A DNA stretch of 45,547 nucleotides from Minisyncoccota bacterium (GCA_040879435.1 JBBDKG010000020.1:12410-57956); one strand, 5' to 3'. Shown: positions 38,405 to 42,745, numbered from the stretch's first letter. Numbers and translations are program-made. The notes: generated from the letters alone by a model not told the origin.

Positions 38405-38710
38405 CTACGTGCCCGTGTGCTCTTTCGCACACGCGCTGATGATGCGCGCAAGGTCTGTGTCCATAGAGGTAACTGTGTTCCCAGCGTCATGCGTTGAGAG
38501 TGTGATGTCGACGCGGTTGTATACGTTCGTCCACTCCGGATGGTGACTGATTCGTTCCGCCTCTACGGCTACGGCCATCATGAAGGCGAACGCCGCGTTG
38601 AAGTCCTTGAAGGTGTACGTTGCAAAAAGACGACCGTCAACGAGCGTCCATTTGGGAAGCGTTTCCAGTGCATCGTGTATCTCAGTTTCAGAAAGAGTAT
38701 GAACTGTCAT
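38405..38710 (-). CDS. Pterin-4-alpha-carbinolamine dehydratase-like
   Basis: FKDFNAAFAFM...HHPEWTNVYNRVDITLSTHDAG. Confidence 0.92.
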   Translation of the reverse strand: MTVHTLSETEIHDALETLPKWTLVDGRLFATYTFKDFNAAFAFMMAVAVEAERISHHPEWTNVYNRVDITLSTHDAGNTVTSMDTDLARIISACAKEHTGT

Positions 38711-38762
38711 AGGGTTTAGCATAGCAGACTCTCTCTTAGTTCGGCGTTTTTTCACGGAAATA

Positions 38763-38817
38763 GCAAGGATAATCGTGAAAAGTAGGCAATTTTGCGTGTT
38801 ATTCACGATTATCTTGC
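38763..38817. repeat. Inverted repeat (12-bp perfect arms, 22-bp spacer) at the left edge of the cassette region
   Basis: GATAATCGTGAA (38768-38779) / TTCACGATTATC (38802-38813), extendable with GCAA/TTGC. Confidence 0.8.
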
Positions 38818-38847
38818 CCCTCTGTTATCCAAATGTTACCGACCGCC

Positions 38848-38867
38848 TGGGACGACGTTGGAACTTT
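38848..38867 (+). repeat. Cassette-boundary direct repeat, copy 1
   Basis: TGGGACGACGTTGGAACTTT; NUDIX stop codon at 38869-38871. Confidence 0.85.
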
Positions 38868-38868
38868 G

Positions 38869-39324
38869 TTAGCGATTTGGCCAATCGTACTCTGAATACT
38901 TTTGACCCCTCTCGTACGATTCAATGGCAGCTCGTATATGGCCTATCGTGTTATTCGGAAGCGCCGAAAGCGGAAACCAAGAGAGGTCGTCACATTTGTT
39001 TGGCTCCATGTTGGTCGGCTCTCCCTTCCATGTCCTCGTCGTAAAATAAAAGCCTATTCGTGCATGGGGGTTTCCTGGATCATCACACCATCGATGTTGC
39101 ACTAGCTGGAAGTCTAGATCATTGGCATGAATAGTTATGCCAATTTCCTCTTGTGCTTCTCTCGCAACACCTTCACGCATCGTTTCTCCGTATTCACCAT
39201 GCCCAGCGGGTAGTCCGTAATTGCCGTCTTCCCAACCCGTTTGAAATCGCCTTGATAGAAGTATCTTTTCTTCTTTTATGAGGAGCAGAAATACTTCTGG
39301 AATAATTTTGTAGCGTTCTGACAT
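38869..39324 (-). CDS. NUDIX hydrolase
   Basis: YGLPAGHGEYGE...AREAQEEIG, EPNKCDDLSWF. Confidence 0.9.
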   Translation of the reverse strand: MSERYKIIPEVFLLLIKEEKILLSRRFQTGWEDGNYGLPAGHGEYGETMREGVAREAQEEIGITIHANDLDFQLVQHRWCDDPGNPHARIGFYFTTRTWKGEPTNMEPNKCDDLSWFPLSALPNNTIGHIRAAIESYERGQKYSEYDWPNR

Positions 39325-39463
39325 ACGGCAAGTATATCAAAAGTCCCTCAGCAACTTTTCAGGTTTCAGTTGCCCGCCGTACGTGAAGAAGACGAGCGTT
39401 CCGACTCCCAAAGGTGAGATAGTATTGAACTCCTCTGTGAGATTTTCATGATAGAATTTCTGT

Positions 39464-39769
39464 ATGATCGCATTCAATATCACAAGTATCATCGTTGTGC
39501 TCGCACTTTCTATCTCATTAGTTTATTGGTTCAAGATTTGGAAAAAAGGAACGGATACTAATTTCAAGAAGGGATCGTTTTTGTACGTCGTGTGCTTCAC
39601 GCTCTATGTTGTCGGTCAAACCTCGGCAATTTTACAAAGTAACGGCTTTGTAGAAGGCTGGTACAACCTATCGAGCTACTGCTATGCGTTAGCTGCTTTG
39701 TTATTTGCATTTGGTTCCTATTACCAATACCAGAGTGTAGTTAAAAATACTTCAACCTACATAGAATAG
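39464..39769 (+). CDS. Hypothetical membrane protein (101 aa)
   Basis: Three TM segments; TAGAAT 6 nt before the ATG; AT-rich. Confidence 0.7.
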   Translation: MIAFNITSIIVVLALSISLVYWFKIWKKGTDTNFKKGSFLYVVCFTLYVVGQTSAILQSNGFVEGWYNLSSYCYALAALLFAFGSYYQYQSVVKNTSTYIE

Positions 39770-39838
39770 GGCTACGGCTCTACAGCAAAGACGCCTTTCA
39801 CCAGCTAGCTGACTGGTGGCTCGCGCACATCAAGAAAC

Positions 39839-40384
39839 CTACAAACGATGCAAATGAGCTTCGAGCTTTTTAAGAGCAATACGGCGCATCGAGGTTCCCT
39901 TCTGTTCCTCGGTATCCATCTCGCCCCACGTTTTGGTATGACCTTCCGGAATAAAGATCGGATCCCAACCGAAACCTCGCTCTCCTTTAGGAGTTTCTGC
40001 TATTGAGCCAGCAGCGCTTCCTTCAAATACTTGTAGCGTTTGTCCGTCGTATAAACCGAACATACATTCTGCAAGCGCTGTTCTGTCGCTATATCCATCA
40101 AGCAATTTGCAAAGTCCGGAATTATCAAGTTCACCAAGGAACCATTTAACGAGCGGACCGGGTAATTTACCGAGCGCTTTGAAAATTAAAGAAGTATCTT
40201 CGACCAGCACTACTCCACCAATTTCTTTATGTGCCTCCTTTGCTTTGTGTTCAATAATTTCTTTCAATTCCAAAGACTGTATCTCCGGCAAATCAAGCTT
40301 CGTATGCGCTACCGGGTGATCTAAATGCCGTTCGAGCTGCTCGGCCTTTGCAGCATTTCCGGTGATGAATGTGAGAGCTACCAT
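39839..40384 (-). CDS. Ham1/ITPase family non-canonical purine NTP pyrophosphatase
   Basis: FITGNAAK, LPEIQ, VEDTSL, LPGPLVKWF, FGWDPIF, SMRRIAL; start at ATG 40384. Confidence 0.93.
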   Translation of the reverse strand: MVALTFITGNAAKAEQLERHLDHPVAHTKLDLPEIQSLELKEIIEHKAKEAHKEIGGVVLVEDTSLIFKALGKLPGPLVKWFLGELDNSGLCKLLDGYSDRTALAECMFGLYDGQTLQVFEGSAAGSIAETPKGERGFGWDPIFIPEGHTKTWGEMDTEEQKGTSMRRIALKKLEAHLHRL

Positions 40385-40475
40385 GGTAGTCACTATTCTA
40401 TCGTGTTTACGAGATTTGCTAAACAATCCACTTCAGGCGTTTAGGATCTCTGTCATCTTACGCAACTCGACCCTC

Positions 40476-40495
40476 TGGGACGAAGTCGAAACTAT
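40476..40495 (+). repeat. Cassette-boundary direct repeat, copy 2
   Basis: TGGGACGAAGTCGAAACTAT; contains the stop codon (40492-40494) of the next - strand ORF. Confidence 0.85.
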
Positions 40496-40968
40496 TCTTC
40501 GTCTGTAAGGTCAACGATTAGTACGTCCGGTACAATTCCAAGAGCTTGCGTTACCATAAGTCGCGTGTTACCGCTCATCAGATGATACACTCCGTCTATC
40601 TTCACAATAACAGGCATATCCATTTCAGCACCCAGTTCCATTTTTTGCTTCAAAGCTTCCCAGGCGCGCTTATTCCCTGAATCATCGGACATACCAGCGT
40701 CAACATGCATAGCAACCGTTTCAAAATCTCCCTGTTTCACGTCAGCTGCATCTGTATTGTCAAGTGTCGCTAATAATTCTTGGGTAAGTGGTACGACCGA
40801 TGCGGAAGCAACCCGTTCGTAGAATCGGTGCGTTAGCCCGTGCACATCATTAGGTCGAAATAACTTTGTAACTCGTTCAAGTTCCCCGACTTCTTGAGAG
40901 GATCTAAAGTCTGGCATCACCCACGTTGGAGAATTAGTCACCTCAGGTCTGCTATTGGACTCAAACAT
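40492..40968 (-). CDS. Hypothetical protein with ParB/sulfiredoxin-like motif
   Basis: PVIVKIDGVYHLMSGNTRL resembles the ParB/Srx GxxR motif. Confidence 0.6.
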   Translation of the reverse strand: MFESNSRPEVTNSPTWVMPDFRSSQEVGELERVTKLFRPNDVHGLTHRFYERVASASVVPLTQELLATLDNTDAADVKQGDFETVAMHVDAGMSDDSGNKRAWEALKQKMELGAEMDMPVIVKIDGVYHLMSGNTRLMVTQALGIVPDVLIVDLTDEE

Positions 40969-40998
40969 ACGGACAGTATATCAGGAGCGTTGGCTGTC

Positions 40999-41018
40999 TG
41001 GGACGACGTTGAAACTTT
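40999..41018 (+). repeat. Cassette-boundary direct repeat, copy 3
   Basis: TGGGACGACGTTGAAACTTT; 5 nt from the U-tract of the - strand terminator. Confidence 0.85.
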
Positions 41019-41023
41019 TGTAT

Positions 41024-41347
41024 AAAAAAGAGCCGCCACCAGCAGCTCTATAGAAAAAGATGAGTGGGTTTAGGCTTGGAAGGACTATCTCCCATGTTCA
41101 GACGGAGAGCTTGCGCTCTTCGCCTTACTCGCTCCTCCGTTCAGTCACCTGCCAAGATAGAATATTCACGCACGGAACTCCTATTCTTGGAGAGGAAAGG
41201 CCTGTTCCTTAGGAATCGCCATGTTGGTCTCTCTCCCACTCACCCTGCCTGATTGCAACTTGCTTGCTCTGTGAGACCGAAATCTTTCTTTAACGGAAGG
41301 CTGCTTCTAAGCCAACCGCCTGAGCTAGCAACGGCAGCAAGTTCGAC
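41024..41347 (-). ncRNA. Candidate structured ncRNA (~325 nt), group-I-intron-like core elements
   Basis: Promoter-like TTGTAT-N16-TATAAA (41381-41354), terminator AGAGCUGCU-GGU-GGCGGCUCU-UUUUU, a GCAA tetraloop hairpin and several 8-10 bp long-range complementarities; no convincing ORF. Confidence 0.6.
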
Positions 41348-41392
41348 AAGATATTTATAGCAAAGAATTCCGTTGATACAAACTATGTTGTA

Positions 41393-41412
41393 TGGGACGA
41401 AATTGGAACTTT
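41393..41412 (+). repeat. Cassette-boundary direct repeat, copy 4
   Basis: TGGGACGAAATTGGAACTTT; overlaps the stop codon (41412-41414) of the next - strand ORF. Confidence 0.85.
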
Positions 41413-41885
41413 TATAAGCGCCAACTTTTGAGGGCACCTCTAAACTGAGTTGCCGTGGCAGCATATCCGAATAAGATCAGCCACAGCCAAATATGAGTGT
41501 AGAAATGTAGCAATGAAAAGGTGACCACGAAAGACTGAATTCCAACGTATCCTAGGTGATACCAACCAGCAAAATTAAAACTTCCCTTTTCTCCATACAT
41601 CCAGCTCCCTTTTTCTCGGACTTTTTTGCGATAAATAAAATAAAGGATAATAAAGAGAGTGGTAAGGAGAATACTGGTCCAGAGTAGCCCTTTTTGGGAG
41701 TCAAGAATCTGCACGAGACCATAGTAGACTGCCAACGCATTGAATAGTGGTAAAAATACCGTGTCACCCACAAGACCGGTCACACTTGATGGGAATGCGG
41801 TGCTCTTTGTGGAAATGCGGGTAAAAACAAAAAACGCTGCTGGTCCAAAGAGTATTGTAGCCATGAATGCGAGTACTGTCTCCAT
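41412..41885 (-). CDS. Hypothetical membrane protein (157 aa)
   Basis: About 5 TM segments, AT-rich; TACTAT 6 nt before the ATG. Confidence 0.7.
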   Translation of the reverse strand: METVLAFMATILFGPAAFFVFTRISTKSTAFPSSVTGLVGDTVFLPLFNALAVYYGLVQILDSQKGLLWTSILLTTLFIILYFIYRKKVREKGSWMYGEKGSFNFAGWYHLGYVGIQSFVVTFSLLHFYTHIWLWLILFGYAATATQFRGALKSWRL

Positions 41886-41953
41886 TGCTTGATAGTACCA
41901 CCCTCTTTGGCCGTCTGAGACTCGAACTATCTCAAAAATGGTAAACTACCAGA

Positions 41954-42745
41954 ATGAAAATATACTCGTGGAACGTAAACGGCATTCGCGCGGTGCATCG
42001 AAAGGGTTTGTTTGAGCCATTTATCAAGGAACACCAACCAGATATCCTGTGTCTGCAGGAAACGAAGGCGGAGCAGGACCAATCTCCCGTGGAACTATCC
42101 GAATATGACGAATACTGGCATTCTGCAGAGAAAAAGGGCTATTCCGGCACCGCTATCTTCACCAAAATAGCCCCTGAAAATGCACTATACGGCCTCCCAG
42201 ACGAAGTGAAAGAAGCGTATGACCTCACAGACTCATACGGAGATACGAGTGCCGAAGGGCGCGTAACAACACTTGAATTGGAAGGATTCTTTATAAGTTC
42301 GGTCTATACACCGAACGCAAAGGACGACCTCTCCCGTCTTCCGGTACGACAGCGATGGGACGCTGCGTACCTTGCATACATGAAACAGCTTTCTAAGCAG
42401 AAACCAGTGATATTCTGCGGGGATCTCAATGTGGCACATACGGAACAGGATCTCGCTCGCCCCAAAGAGAACAAAGGGAAGAAAGGATTCACTGAAGAGG
42501 AACGCGATGGCATCGACAGTATGCTTGATGCAGGATTTACGGATAGCTTCCGCTTGTTCCACGAAGGCAATGGACACTACACATGGTGGTCACACTTCGG
42601 TCACGCACGCGAACGGAATGTCGGGTGGCGCATCGACTATGTGATGGTCGCAAAGGATCTGGTGCCTGTGGTGAAGAAAGCGGCGATCCATCCGGATGTA
42701 TTTGGCTCCGACCATTGTCCTGTATCGGTGGAATTAGCGCTCTAA
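41954..42745 (+). CDS. xth: Exodeoxyribonuclease III / AP endonuclease
   Basis: SWNVNGIRA, LQETK, GYSGTA, GDLNVAH, GWRIDY, GSDHCP. Confidence 0.96.
   Translation: MKIYSWNVNGIRAVHRKGLFEPFIKEHQPDILCLQETKAEQDQSPVELSEYDEYWHSAEKKGYSGTAIFTKIAPENALYGLPDEVKEAYDLTDSYGDTSAEGRVTTLELEGFFISSVYTPNAKDDLSRLPVRQRWDAAYLAYMKQLSKQKPVIFCGDLNVAHTEQDLARPKENKGKKGFTEEERDGIDSMLDAGFTDSFRLFHEGNGHYTWWSHFGHARERNVGWRIDYVMVAKDLVPVVKKAAIHPDVFGSDHCPVSVELAL

What the first reader, a model, noticed from the sequence alone, without database searches (positions are those of the whole stretch)
38848..41930. Integron-like cassette array delimited by a 20-bp direct repeat, with no recombinase nearby
Seen: four direct copies of TGGGACGA(C/A)(G/A)T(T/C)G(G/A)AACT(T/A)T at 38848, 40476, 40999 and 41393, with 15 of 20 positions invariant, and no full copy noticed elsewhere in the window. 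Each copy abuts the 3' end of a minus-strand unit: stops at 38869, 40492 and 41412, and a terminator U-tract at 41024. The cargo is unrelated stand-alone units, each with its own -10 box (NUDIX, ITPase, a ParB-like protein, membrane proteins, a putative RNA), and looks more AT-rich than the core by eye. A degenerate fifth copy may lie at about 41911-41930 (CCGTCTGAGACTCGAACTAT). Inference: these are recombination sites or scars of serial site-specific integration, i.e. a gene-capture platform that lacks the attC hairpins of integrons and the dif signature of pdif modules, serviced by a recombinase encoded elsewhere.
Basis: partly seen in the sequence, partly recalled or inferred. Interest (0 to 1): 0.9.

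Follow-up and report, generated by a model that had tools for sequence, protein, structure and literature searches.

The report
tRNA-anchored single-gene cassette arrays, serine-recombinase sites
A 20-base repeat separates small one-gene units in several variable spots of this tiny bacterial genome and its relatives, and its sequence looks like the docking site of a serine recombinase that targets the ends of tRNA genes, so it probably marks how these streamlined bacteria pick up and store accessory genes.

Summary
The four copies stand against 0.03 expected. The genome holds 14 copies in four clusters, and 39 of 60 sampled congeners carry the repeat.

- **Orientation:** copies are always co-oriented, in 41 of 41 and 65 of 65 multi-copy loci.
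- **Units:** median spacing is 651 bp, mostly one ORF per unit, with the stop codon abutting the repeat.
- **Position:** arrays lie in conserved core-genome hot spots, usually directly 3' of tRNA-Gln, tRNA-Val, tRNA-Gly or tRNA-Ser.
- **tRNA mimicry:** the repeat's left flank mimics the adjacent tRNA's 3' end.
- **Five-base shift:** That is the published attP-versus-attB half-site rule of large serine integrases.

Five of five full-length serine-recombinase elements in relatives have the repeat at their far end and a tRNA at the near end. I read the repeats as serine-integrase attachment sites that delimit recombinase-less cassettes. The arrays work like an integron but are not one. Recombination itself was not shown. 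Interest 0.65.

The parts
38838..38868 (+). Repeat copy 1 (core 38848-38867, TGGGACGACGTTGGAACTTT) with a weakly conserved left extension. P'-type spacing: inner GGGAC, 5 bp, outer TnGAAC.
   Evidence: 35.6 bits
40466..40496 (+). Repeat copy 2 (core 40476-40495). It overlaps the stop codon of the 158-aa ORF.
   Evidence: 31.9 bits
40989..41019 (+). Repeat copy 3 (core 40999-41018). A minus-strand terminator lies directly to its right, and the promoter/ATG of the 158-aa ORF lies to its left.
   Evidence: (39.5 bits)
41383..41413 (+). Repeat copy 4 (core 41393-41412). It overlaps the stop of the 157-aa membrane ORF.
   Evidence: 38.9 bits
41908..41930 (+). Terminal site before xth (CCGTCTGAGACTCGAACTAT). 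It has the same left part and outer motif as the repeat but lacks the 5 internal bases (B'-type spacing, like a tRNA T-loop region). It overlaps the -35 region of the xth promoter.
   Evidence: One of only 2 such sites in the genome, each at the end of an array.
38869..39324 (-). Cassette gene: NUDIX hydrolase (151 aa), stop 1 nt from copy 1.
   Evidence: NUDIX homologues abut a repeat in 6 of the 11 family members found.
39464..39769 (+). Small membrane-like ORF (101 aa) inside unit 1, in the opposite orientation.
   Evidence: no family above cut-off
39839..40384 (-). Cassette gene: Ham1-family ITPase (181 aa). Promoter-like TTAGCA-16-TAGAAT at 40422-40395.
40492..40968 (-).
   Evidence: A homologue lies beside a pterin dehydratase gene in another species.
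41019..41392 (-). Unit without a convincing ORF, with a TATAAA box and a terminator (41049-41029). It holds a 39-nt stretch 90% identical to a once-per-genome, rRNA-like sequence.
41412..41885 (-). Cassette gene: 157-aa membrane protein, lying between copy 4 (P'-type) and the terminal B'-type site.
38405..38722 (-). Left neighbour: pterin-4a-carbinolamine dehydratase.
41954..42745 (+). Right neighbour: exodeoxyribonuclease III (xth). It is a conserved anchor: xth with the CCA-adding enzyme gene is syntenic in relatives.

Best explanation
The 20-bp repeats are attachment-site half-sites of a large serine recombinase (LSR) system that targets the 3' ends of tRNA genes.

Each repeat has two parts:
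- A short host or tRNA-end part on the left.
- An element-borne P'-type half-site on the right, roughly CGTCTGGGAC-GAnGT-TnGAACTTT.

The array ends in a B'-type half-site. This is a real tRNA (Gln, Val, Gly or Ser) or, in this window, a tRNA-like pseudo-site in front of xth. The B'-type site has the same inner and outer motifs but is 5 bp shorter.

The units between repeats are compact, AT-rich, mostly single-gene cassettes with their own promoter-like and terminator sequences and no recombinase. I infer that they are non-autonomous elements inserted, and perhaps reshuffled, in trans by an LSR carried on occasional 4-6 kb autonomous elements.

**Shown:** the anatomy, distribution, tRNA linkage, tRNA mimicry and 5-bp shift, and that the 5 best-matching LSR genes (the full-length ~500-aa subfamily) are bounded by this repeat and a tRNA.
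**Inferred:** that an LSR is the enzyme, that the crossover lies about 4-5 nt left of the 20-mer, and that cassettes are or were mobile.
For: 1. **Non-random, clustered, co-oriented.**
- 4 copies against 0.03 expected.
- 14 copies in the genome at 4 places; the next best PWM hits are at shuffle level.
- 41 of 41 multi-copy loci and 65 of 65 in an independent all-species scan are co-oriented.

2. **Conserved in the genus while the cargo is not.**
- 39 of 60 congeners carry it; the reversed-pattern control gave 4 hits.
- Flanks are core genes: xth, pyrG, ftsX, dnaX, pilMNO, rluD.
- In-array genes are mostly singletons.

3. **Polar tRNA linkage.**
- 37 of 84 loci have a complement-strand tRNA within 1.6 kb on the AACTTT side; 26 of these are tRNA-Gln.
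- Only 3 of 75 have any tRNA on the other side.
- In G000 both tRNA-Gln genes sit at contig ends, and C21 (with a repeat) joins tRNA-Gln(ttg) by an 11-nt overlap.

4. **tRNA mimicry.**
- The left flank matches the adjacent tRNA's own 3' end at 6.21 of 11 positions, against 5.32 +/- 0.18 when loci are permuted; 0 of 5000 permutations reached the observed value.
- One copy is an exact tRNA-left/repeat-right hybrid.

5. **Five-base shift.**
- The terminal sites before xth (G000, and G002 = locus L027) and on C15 equal the repeat minus exactly 5 bases.
- The tRNA T-loop region has that same spacing.
- For serine integrases the outer (zinc-ribbon-domain) motif is 'shifted by 5 bp toward the center' in attB relative to attP (PMC3783163, passages read).

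6. **LSR elements.** The 5 best matches to a ~500-aa LSR (G073, G064, G022 x3) all have a same-strand repeat 2.5-5.5 kb upstream. The four of these that were examined end 27-60 nt inside a tRNA. The layout is repeat, cargo, regulator, Rep-like gene, LSR, tRNA.

7. **Compact cassettes.**
- 56 of 80 units hold one ORF.
- The stop lies within 5 nt of the repeat in 31 of 60.
- Coding fraction is 0.84.
- No LSR or Rep fragments were found in 63.6 kb of arrays.

8. **Composition.** Arrays are 41-46% GC against 52.9% for the genome.
Against: - **No recombination event was observed.** The single run holding the locus gave contigs with no joints, and no strain-level relatives were found (best xth identity 73-79%).
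- **LSR presence does not track the repeat.** 9 of 39 repeat-bearing congeners had no LSR match at all, among them G002 with 21 copies. Many repeat-free genomes have LSRs. Only 7 of the 52 LSR places have a repeat within 8 kb upstream.
- **G000's own LSR is not clearly cognate.** It belongs to another subfamily (35% identity over 405 aa). Its upstream side runs off its contig.
- **The left half-site is barely conserved.** A full quasi-palindromic 40-50 bp att site is not evident.
- **Serine integrases do not normally reuse attL/attR.** How many P'-type sites accumulate in tandem is therefore unexplained.
- **tRNA adjacency could be coincidental.** tRNA-linked hot spots are variable even in repeat-free genomes, so the repeat and LSR elements could simply share a hot spot.
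- **Selection of loci.** I chose the loci from hit lists, favouring clusters on long contigs.
Confidence: 0.55

Rival explanations
1. The repeats are inert scars. They are attL-type relics of successive full-length integrative elements at tRNA genes that later lost almost everything by deletion. The 'cassettes' would then be leftover cargo, not mobile units.
For: - Full-length elements with the repeat at one end exist.
- Many repeat-rich genomes have no LSR.
- Prochlorococcus islands are described as holding remnants and scattered partial tRNAs from older integrations (bioRxiv 10.1101/2020.12.28.424599, passages read).
Against: - Random decay should leave gene fragments and irregular sizes. 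Instead 56 of 80 units hold one intact ORF, coding fraction is 0.84, stops abut the repeat, and no LSR or Rep fragments occur in 63.6 kb.
- The 20-mer is about 90-100% conserved across species whose proteins are 65-79% identical. That is unexpected for unselected scars.
- The same cassette families occur at different hot spots in different species.
Confidence: 0.2
2. The repeat is recognised by a tyrosine recombinase. This would be the housekeeping Xer-like enzyme or a lost integrase, as in classical tRNA-targeting islands, IMEX elements or pdif modules.
For: - Every genome examined has 1-2 Xer-like tyrosine recombinases.
- tRNA 3' ends are classical tyrosine-integrase targets (abstract of PMC4383910 in the listing).
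- Repeat-rich genomes without an LSR still have a Xer-like gene.
Against: - There is no dyad of 9-11 bp arms around a 6-8 bp spacer, and no alternating orientation as in pdif modules.
- The identity block with the tRNA is imperfect, so the tRNA could not be restored by a long identical core.
- The exact 5-bp spacing isoform has no role in tyrosine-recombinase sites.
- The two Xer-like size classes are not shared by all repeat-rich genomes.
- G000's gene sits between housekeeping genes.
Confidence: 0.1
3. The repeat is a protein-binding regulatory or insulator site, for example for a winged-helix regulator. It would sit just upstream of the -35 box of cassette promoters and have no role in recombination.
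For: - In many copies a TTGACA-like box for the neighbouring gene lies 0-8 nt from the repeat's left extension (read by eye).
- The core holds a GGAC/GAAC direct repeat 11 bp apart.
- The terminal variant overlaps the -35 region of xth and of a methyltransferase gene.
Against: - Orientation is constant although 14 of 56 single-ORF units have the gene reversed.
- Many copies are flanked by terminators on both sides.
- Distance to a -10 box varies from 18 to more than 37 nt (by eye).
- A regulator model does not explain the restriction to a few arrays next to tRNA 3' ends, the flank co-variation with the tRNA, or the 5-bp isoform.
Confidence: 0.08
4. The repeats are short homology anchors. Cassettes would be swapped by natural transformation and RecA recombination between conserved 20-30 bp repeats and the conserved tRNA, with no site-specific enzyme.
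For: - No dedicated recombinase is present in many repeat-rich genomes.
- One hot spot lies beside pilMNO genes.
- The contigs break inside the arrays. Population heterogeneity would explain this, but so would assembly failure.
Against: - 20-30 bp is at the lower limit for RecA-dependent exchange (recalled, not tested).
- This does not explain why the repeat mimics a tRNA end, or why a precise 5-bp-shorter isoform ends the arrays.
- It gives no reason for strict co-orientation beyond history.
Confidence: 0.05

Closest known systems
Large serine integrase attachment sites (attP/attB half-site model; Rutherford et al. 2013, PMC3783163, passages read)
   Same: - A shared inner segment plus a 7-9 bp outer motif that sits 5 bp further out in one site type (the repeat) than in the other (tRNA or terminal site).
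- Full-length LSR elements lie with the repeat at one end and the tRNA at the other.
   Different: - Here many P'-type sites stand in tandem, separated by recombinase-less single genes.
- The left half-site is hardly conserved.
- No cognate enzyme is identified and no assay was done.
Tycheposon-built genomic islands at tRNA genes in Prochlorococcus (bioRxiv 10.1101/2020.12.28.424599, passages read)
   Same: - A streamlined genome with persistent variable islands next to a few tRNA genes.
- Serial integrations push older material inward, leaving partial-tRNA repeats as boundaries.
- Integrases (tyrosine or large serine) with replication genes sit on rare autonomous elements.
   Different: - The units here are about 0.65 kb single genes in regular arrays.
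- The boundary is a conserved hybrid (tRNA-end mimic plus a non-tRNA 14-mer), not a plain partial tRNA.
- Some arrays end at a non-tRNA pseudo-site (xth).
- That paper's supplementary documents, which I could not see, may hold closer cases.
Integrons (IntI, attI, attC cassette arrays); features recalled, not from a call
   Same: Co-oriented site array, mostly one ORF per unit, the site abutting the stop codon, variable cargo, and one fixed end of the array.
   Different: - No IntI-type tyrosine recombinase.
- No attC hairpin.
- Cassettes have promoter-like sequence and either orientation.
- There are several arrays per genome, anchored at tRNA genes.
SCC-type composite islands of staphylococci (Ccr large serine recombinases, direct repeats at the rlmH 3' end, ccr-less pseudo-SCC units); recalled, not tested or read here
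   Same: Tandem units bounded by short direct repeats at the 3' end of a conserved gene, with many units lacking their own serine recombinase and presumed to be moved in trans.
   Different: - The target is a protein gene rather than a tRNA.
- Units are kilobases to tens of kilobases.
- The lineage and the site sequence are different.
Dehalococcoides ssrA genomic islands (PMC3146451; only the search listing and abstract start were seen)
   Same: Site-specific tandem islands at the 3' end of a small RNA gene in a streamlined genome.
   Different: - Multi-gene islands that carry their own integrase.
- The single-gene regularity and the 5-bp isoform are not known to me from that system.

Membership tests
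Integron | IntI-type tyrosine recombinase next to the array | tested here: not met
   The only PF00589 match in G000 is a 328-aa Xer-like gene on contig C3, between an M23 peptidase and murI. None is in the window.
Integron | attC sites: imperfect inverted repeats that fold into a hairpin | tested here: not met
   80-nt single-strand DNA folds of all 4 copies on both strands gave z from +0.17 to -1.90 and no common structure. No conservation extends beyond about 30 bp.
Integron | Co-oriented sites separating mostly single, promoterless ORFs of one orientation | tested here: inconclusive
   Co-orientation holds in 41 of 41 and 65 of 65 loci, and 56 of 80 units have one ORF. But 14 of 56 single ORFs are reversed, and promoter-like boxes adjoin the repeat.
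Large serine integrase att sites | attP and attB half-sites share the inner motif and a 7-9 bp outer motif that is 5 bp nearer the centre in attB | tested here: met
   Repeat..GGGAC-GAnGT-TnGAACTTT. Terminal sites and tRNA..GGGAC-TCGAAC... In G002 (locus L027) the two forms are identical apart from the 5 bases. The rule is read in PMC3783163.
Large serine integrase att sites | A cognate large serine recombinase linked to the sites | tested here: inconclusive
   - The 5 best matches to the ~500-aa LSR query have the repeat 2.5-5.5 kb upstream; the four examined end in a tRNA.
- 9 of 39 repeat-bearing genomes have no LSR match.
- G000's LSR is on another contig and belongs to another subfamily.
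Large serine integrase att sites | Quasi-palindromic 40-50 bp site around a central dinucleotide | tested here: not met
   Only the right half and about 10 nt to its left are conserved. No inverted copy of the outer motif is found on the left side of the copies (by eye).
Large serine integrase att sites | Recombination between the two site types by the enzyme | not testable with these tools
   This needs an in vitro or heterologous assay.
tRNA-targeting integrative islands (tycheposon-like) | Island directly at the 3' end of a tRNA gene | tested here: met
   - 37 of 84 loci have a complement-strand tRNA within 1.6 kb on one side, against 3 of 75 on the other.
- The window's own array ends at a tRNA-like pseudo-site instead of a tRNA.
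tRNA-targeting integrative islands (tycheposon-like) | Boundaries are partial copies of the target tRNA | tested here: inconclusive
   The left flank resembles the adjacent tRNA's own 3' end (6.21 of 11 against 5.32 on permutation; 0 of 5000 permutations reached it). It is not a plain copy, and the right 14 nt are not tRNA sequence.
tRNA-targeting integrative islands (tycheposon-like) | Units carry integrase and replication modules | tested here: not met
   None were found in 63.6 kb of array interior. They are present only in occasional 4-6 kb elements at the tRNA-proximal end.
pdif / Xer modules | 28-bp XerC-spacer-XerD sites in alternating orientation | tested here: not met
   All copies are co-oriented, and no dyad arms are seen.
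REP / MITE / uptake-sequence type dispersed repeats | Many copies scattered genome-wide | tested here: not met
   14 copies at 4 places in 761 kb, with nothing else above shuffle level.

The most novel reading that the evidence does not exclude
A genus-wide gene-capture platform that is a serine-recombinase analogue of the integron.
- Recombinase-less, self-expressed single-gene cassettes each end in a P'-type half-site.
- They are inserted, excised and reshuffled in trans at B'-type targets, namely tRNA 3' ends and a tRNA-like pseudo-site before xth.
- The 5-bp spacing isoforms would encode which partner is which.

This would be a main route of accessory-gene turnover in these very small Patescibacteria genomes.
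Probability: 0.35. Interest if true: 0.85.

Novelty: new variant of a known kind. Interest (0 to 1): 0.65.

Why it matters
These very small Patescibacteria genomes are thought to have few mobile elements, and how they turn over accessory genes is poorly known. These arrays point to defined, tRNA-anchored insertion points where nucleotide house-cleaning enzymes (NUDIX, ITPase, MazG), methyltransferases and unknown genes are stored as separate units. This would parallel what tycheposons do in Prochlorococcus.

If a serine integrase services them, three things follow:
- The site pair (repeat against 5-bp-shorter target) is a natural, sequence-defined example of the attP/attB spacing rule.
- It gives testable enzyme and site candidates.
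- It would show that cassette platforms like integrons can be built on a different recombinase chemistry.

Tried and rejected
- **Promoter element with fixed spacing.** Rejected. Distance to -10 boxes varies, genes lie in both orientations, and the window scan found 3 promoter-like sites against 5.6 expected.
- **CRISPR.** Rejected. Spacing is 211-3601 bp and the units hold ORFs.
- **attC-like hairpin.** None found.
- **Tus/Ter.** The core resembles the E. coli Ter core as I recall it, but no Tus family match was found.
- **Y1 transposase, rve and IS110 families.** No match in G000, which is 94% complete.
- **dif-like reading (11-6-11).** Considered by eye and dropped, because the left part co-varies with the neighbouring tRNA.
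- **Phage origin.** 5 viral contigs hold the 20-mer. In all 5 it lies in long conserved flanks that read as coding sequence (W-D-D-V-G-T-F); 4 of the 5 contigs are 60-67% GC and one is 43%. I took these as chance hits.
- **Sequencing runs.** One run, possibly the source, holds the locus, as contigs only. No joints, insertions or deletions were listed. One loose end at 41393 is merely the C16 copy aligning on the repeat. This says nothing about absence of rearrangement.
- **Metagenome relatives of xth.** 80 loci, best identity 73%. Only 1 of 63 with upstream sequence had repeats, so no strain-level comparison was possible.
- The ITPase query was mis-framed, so nothing is claimed from it.
- **LSR as a simple presence/absence correlate.** Rejected.
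- **'Putative RNA' unit.** No Rfam family at gathering or E<=1 apart from a chance snoRNA hit at E 0.44. Fold z is -1.37. No homologue in 60 congeners beyond a 39-nt rRNA-like stretch.
- **Literature.** Searches for this arrangement in CPR/Parcubacteria found nothing that describes it. Only titles and abstract starts of the listings were seen.

Full report
**1. The observation.**
The pattern TGGGACGAMRTYGRAACTWT occurs at 38848, 40476, 40999 and 41393 on the + strand and nowhere else in the window at up to 3 mismatches. Chance expectation is 0.03, and 0 of 100 shuffles reached 4. Minus-strand ORFs stop at 38869, 40492 and 41412, so they abut or overlap copies 1, 2 and 4. A hairpin with a T-tract (41049-41029, minus strand) ends directly at copy 3. 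Pfam confirms NUDIX, Ham1/ITPase and pterin dehydratase. It finds nothing for the 'ParB-like' or membrane ORFs. The array is 45.2% GC against 53.1% for the rest of the contig.

**2. The repeat in the whole genome.**
The window is contig C20 of a 760,905-bp, 21-contig genome. A PWM built from the good copies finds 14 sites: 13 above 30 bits and one at 24 bits. They are C20 x4, C16 x7 within 3.4 kb, C15 x2 at the contig end, and C21 x1. The next hits (16.3 and 13.6 bits) are at the level of shuffled sequence, where the maximum was 16.2. So the repeat is neither unique to this locus nor scattered. In the C16 array each inter-repeat unit holds one ORF. The cargo of these arrays comprises an S51 peptidase, SAM methyltransferases, a MazG-like protein, an isochorismatase and unknowns. 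These arrays are also AT-rich, at 41-46% GC.

**3. The repeat in relatives.**
With TGGGACGANGTTNRAACTTT at up to 2 mismatches, 39 of 60 sampled genomes of the same genus have matches. The reversed-pattern control gave 4 hits in all. A stricter pattern hit 19 of 36 congeners and gave single hits in 3 of 24 genomes of other families of the order.

I fetched 60 loci from about 35 genomes. These were xth regions, plus repeat clusters that I picked from the hit lists, preferring long contigs.
- They hold 129 copies, and in 41 of 41 loci with two or more copies all copies point the same way.
Their titles are mostly Patescibacteria/Paceibacterota, with a few unrelated taxa as expected by chance. All 65 of 65 multi-copy loci are co-oriented.
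- Spacing (n=80) is 211-3601 bp, median 651.
- Of 80 units, 56 hold one ORF of at least 55 aa, 16 hold two, 5 hold three or more and 3 hold none.
- Single ORFs point 'leftward' in 42 cases and 'rightward' in 14.
- The stop codon lies within 5 nt of the repeat in 31 of 60 cases.
- The start codon lies a median of 72 nt from the next repeat. Coding fraction is 0.84.

**4. Where the arrays lie.**
Clustering the proteins of these loci shows conserved core-gene flanks and mostly singleton cargo. Four recurrent hot spots appear:
- upstream of xth, in G000 and five relatives (6 of 22 xth loci);
- 3' of tRNA-Gln(ctg), beside a histidine phosphatase gene and dnaX;
- 3' of tRNA-Gln(ttg), beside pyrG, ftsX and ftsE;
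- between tRNA-Arg(tct) and the 3' end of tRNA-Val(tac), beside pilMNO and rluD/rplS.

Arrays at tRNA-Gly and tRNA-Ser also occur. In the species-wide set, 37 of 84 loci with room have a complement-strand tRNA within 1.6 kb on the AACTTT side of the last copy, and 26 of these are tRNA-Gln. Only 3 of 75 have any tRNA within 1.6 kb on the other side. The last repeat-to-tRNA distance is cassette-sized, about 600-1300 bp with one gene.

In G000 itself:
- tRNA-Gln(ctg) lies 69 nt from the end of contig C2.
- tRNA-Gln(ttg) lies 8 nt from the start of C4.
- C21 (repeat, then a methyltransferase gene) joins C4 by an 11-nt overlap, the only strong overlap among all contig ends.
- C15 and C16 may join, but by 6 nt only, which is weak.

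Upstream of xth the gene content differs completely between species. None of the window's pterin dehydratase, 101-aa, 158-aa or 157-aa proteins was found in 21 relatives' xth loci. The ITPase query in that call was mis-framed and is not counted. NUDIX homologues occur there, but at other positions. The region 3' of tRNA-Gln(ttg) is also variable in repeat-free genomes.

**5. What the repeat is made of.**
Aligning all copies extends the consensus leftwards to about GCTGGCYGTC-TGGGACGAnGTTnGAACTTT-T. This left part resembles the reverse complement of the 3' end (acceptor and T stem) of the adjacent tRNA, and it changes with the tRNA:
- GCTGG.. next to tRNA-Gln (GCTGCCGGACAGGGAC);
- GTGCACCATG.. 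next to tRNA-Val (GTGCGCGATGAGAGAC);
- GTGCGGGTTG.. next to tRNA-Gly;
- GCGGGC.. next to tRNA-Ser.

Over 27 loci the 11-nt flank matches the adjacent tRNA at 6.21 positions, against 5.32 +/- 0.18 when tRNAs are permuted among loci. None of 5000 permutations reached the observed value. By type, 46 of 67 copies match their own tRNA type best. One copy in L056 is an exact hybrid: 16 nt of the local tRNA-Gln followed by the repeat's right half.

**6. The 5-bp isoform.**
It has the repeat's left part and its outer TCGAAC(T) motif but lacks the five bases GAnGT between them.
- In G002 the site before xth and a neighbouring repeat are identical apart from those five bases.
- By eye, 7 of 21 xth loci carry such a site at about -45 to -25 of xth, including two genomes with no array there.
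- In G000 only two such sites exist. The other lies on C15, where it ends that array in front of a methyltransferase gene.
- Real tRNAs have this same shorter spacing (GGGAC-TCGAAC).

Every array therefore consists of several 'long' sites followed by one 'short' site, which is either a tRNA or a pseudo-site.

**7. The link to large serine recombinases.**
[quoted passage not shown] Minimal attB sites are about 10 bp shorter than attP sites (PMC3783163, passages read). The repeat and the terminal site fit this rule exactly, as P'-type and B'-type half-sites. By analogy with the positions given there, the crossover would lie about 4-5 nt left of the 20-mer, inside the last bases of the tRNA. That would explain why only the first 4-6 nt of the left extension follow the local tRNA. 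This step is inference.

The genus is rich in LSR genes (47 of 61 genomes). Several of them run 27-60 nt into a tRNA gene, namely Gln, Gly, Ser and Arg, and His in G000. With one ~500-aa LSR as query, the five best matches (G073, G064, G022 x3) each have a same-strand repeat 2.5-5.5 kb upstream. The layout is repeat, cargo, XRE-like regulator, Rep-like protein, LSR, tRNA. One search found no tRNA after one of the G022 genes. In all, 7 of the 52 LSR places have a repeat within 8 kb upstream.

**8. What argues against, or is missing.**
- No recombination event was seen. The only run holding the locus is probably the source and is kept as contigs, and no joints were listed.
- The closest xth relatives in genomes and metagenomes are 73-79% identical, so no strain-level indels could be mapped.
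- LSR presence does not follow the repeat. 9 of 39 repeat-bearing congeners gave no LSR match, among them G002 with 21 copies.
- G000's LSR is of another subfamily, and its upstream side is off-contig.
- G000 otherwise has one Xer-like tyrosine recombinase in a housekeeping context. It has no Tus, Y1, rve or IS110 family match.
- The left half-site is barely conserved.
- Serine integrases are not known to reuse product sites, so tandem accumulation of P'-type sites needs an explanation I cannot give.
- The repeat and LSR elements might merely share tRNA hot spots.

**9. Comparison with known systems.**
- **Integron.** The array works like an integron in layout but fails its defining features: no IntI, no attC hairpin and no promoterless cassettes.
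- **Prochlorococcus tycheposon islands.** This is the nearest described biology. It is a streamlined genome with persistent islands at a few tRNA genes, built by serial integration, with partial tRNAs as boundaries and rare autonomous elements carrying tyrosine or large serine recombinases.
- **SCC composite islands.** As I recall them, staphylococcal SCC composite islands have tandem, often recombinase-less units served by Ccr serine recombinases.
- **What is different here.** The units are regular one-gene cassettes. The boundary is a conserved hybrid. The 5-bp isoform pair is present. Some arrays are anchored at a non-tRNA pseudo-site.
- **Literature.** Searches for such arrays in CPR/Parcubacteria found none (listings only).

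**10. Verdict.**
- **Confidence:** about 0.75 that these are site-specific recombination sites of tRNA-targeting elements, and about 0.55 for the full statement with an LSR as the enzyme.
- **Novelty:** new variant of a known kind.
- **Interest:** 0.65.

Noticed in passing
window 41019-41392 (minus strand): This inter-repeat unit has no convincing ORF. It has a TATAAA box and a terminator, and a 39-nt stretch (41284-41321) that is 90% identical to G000:C11:20031-20069. That sequence is found once per genome in 30 congeners and at very high depth in other organisms of three metagenome runs, so it is rRNA-like. There is no Rfam family and fold z is -1.37. Its function is unknown.
   Followed up: partly
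G000 contig C14:15202-17182 (L002): The genome's only large serine recombinase (518 aa) ends 28 nt inside tRNA-His. It is flanked by a 66-nt or longer inverted repeat. The repeat includes a second, inverted copy of its C-terminal coding end beside a T-loop-like fragment, just before the contig end. It could be an invertible or nested element.
   Followed up: partly
L074 9057-9225; also L158, L163, L165, L168, L169: A mini-insert of about 125-250 bp lies at the 3' end of tRNA-Gln. It is bounded by a 20-22 nt direct repeat of the tRNA end and begins with a conserved GCTTACAGCTTCAGT-like sequence. It is present in genomes with and without the 20-bp repeat, so it is a second, different small element using the same tRNA.
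   Followed up: no
L036, L037, L038, L041, L063 (relatives): Serine recombinase ORFs read 27-60 nt into tRNA genes, so their C-terminal tails are encoded by the reverse complement of the tRNA. The elements also carry an XRE-like regulator and a Rep-like protein with a P-loop.
   Followed up: partly
G000 contigs C2 and C21, first 52-54 nt: Both contigs begin with the same 52 nt at 100% identity. This is a repeat or an assembly branch point near the two tRNA-Gln hot spots.
   Followed up: no
L040 7639-8437 versus window 38405-40968: In another species the homologues of the 158-aa protein and the pterin dehydratase are adjacent, 22 nt apart. In the window they are separated by the 1.6-kb NUDIX-ITPase unit, which is bounded by repeat copies 1 and 2.
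   Followed up: no
L062 (relative): This is one locus where the array's orientation relative to the dnaX-side flank is inverted compared with seven other loci of the same hot spot.
   Followed up: no
viral contigs L181, L183, L184, L185: The exact 20-mer occurs inside a conserved coding region of four related high-GC (60-67%) viral contigs, reading W-D-D-V-G-T-F. A fifth viral hit (L182, 43% GC) has unrelated flanks. I took all of these as chance hits unrelated to the arrays.
   Followed up: yes
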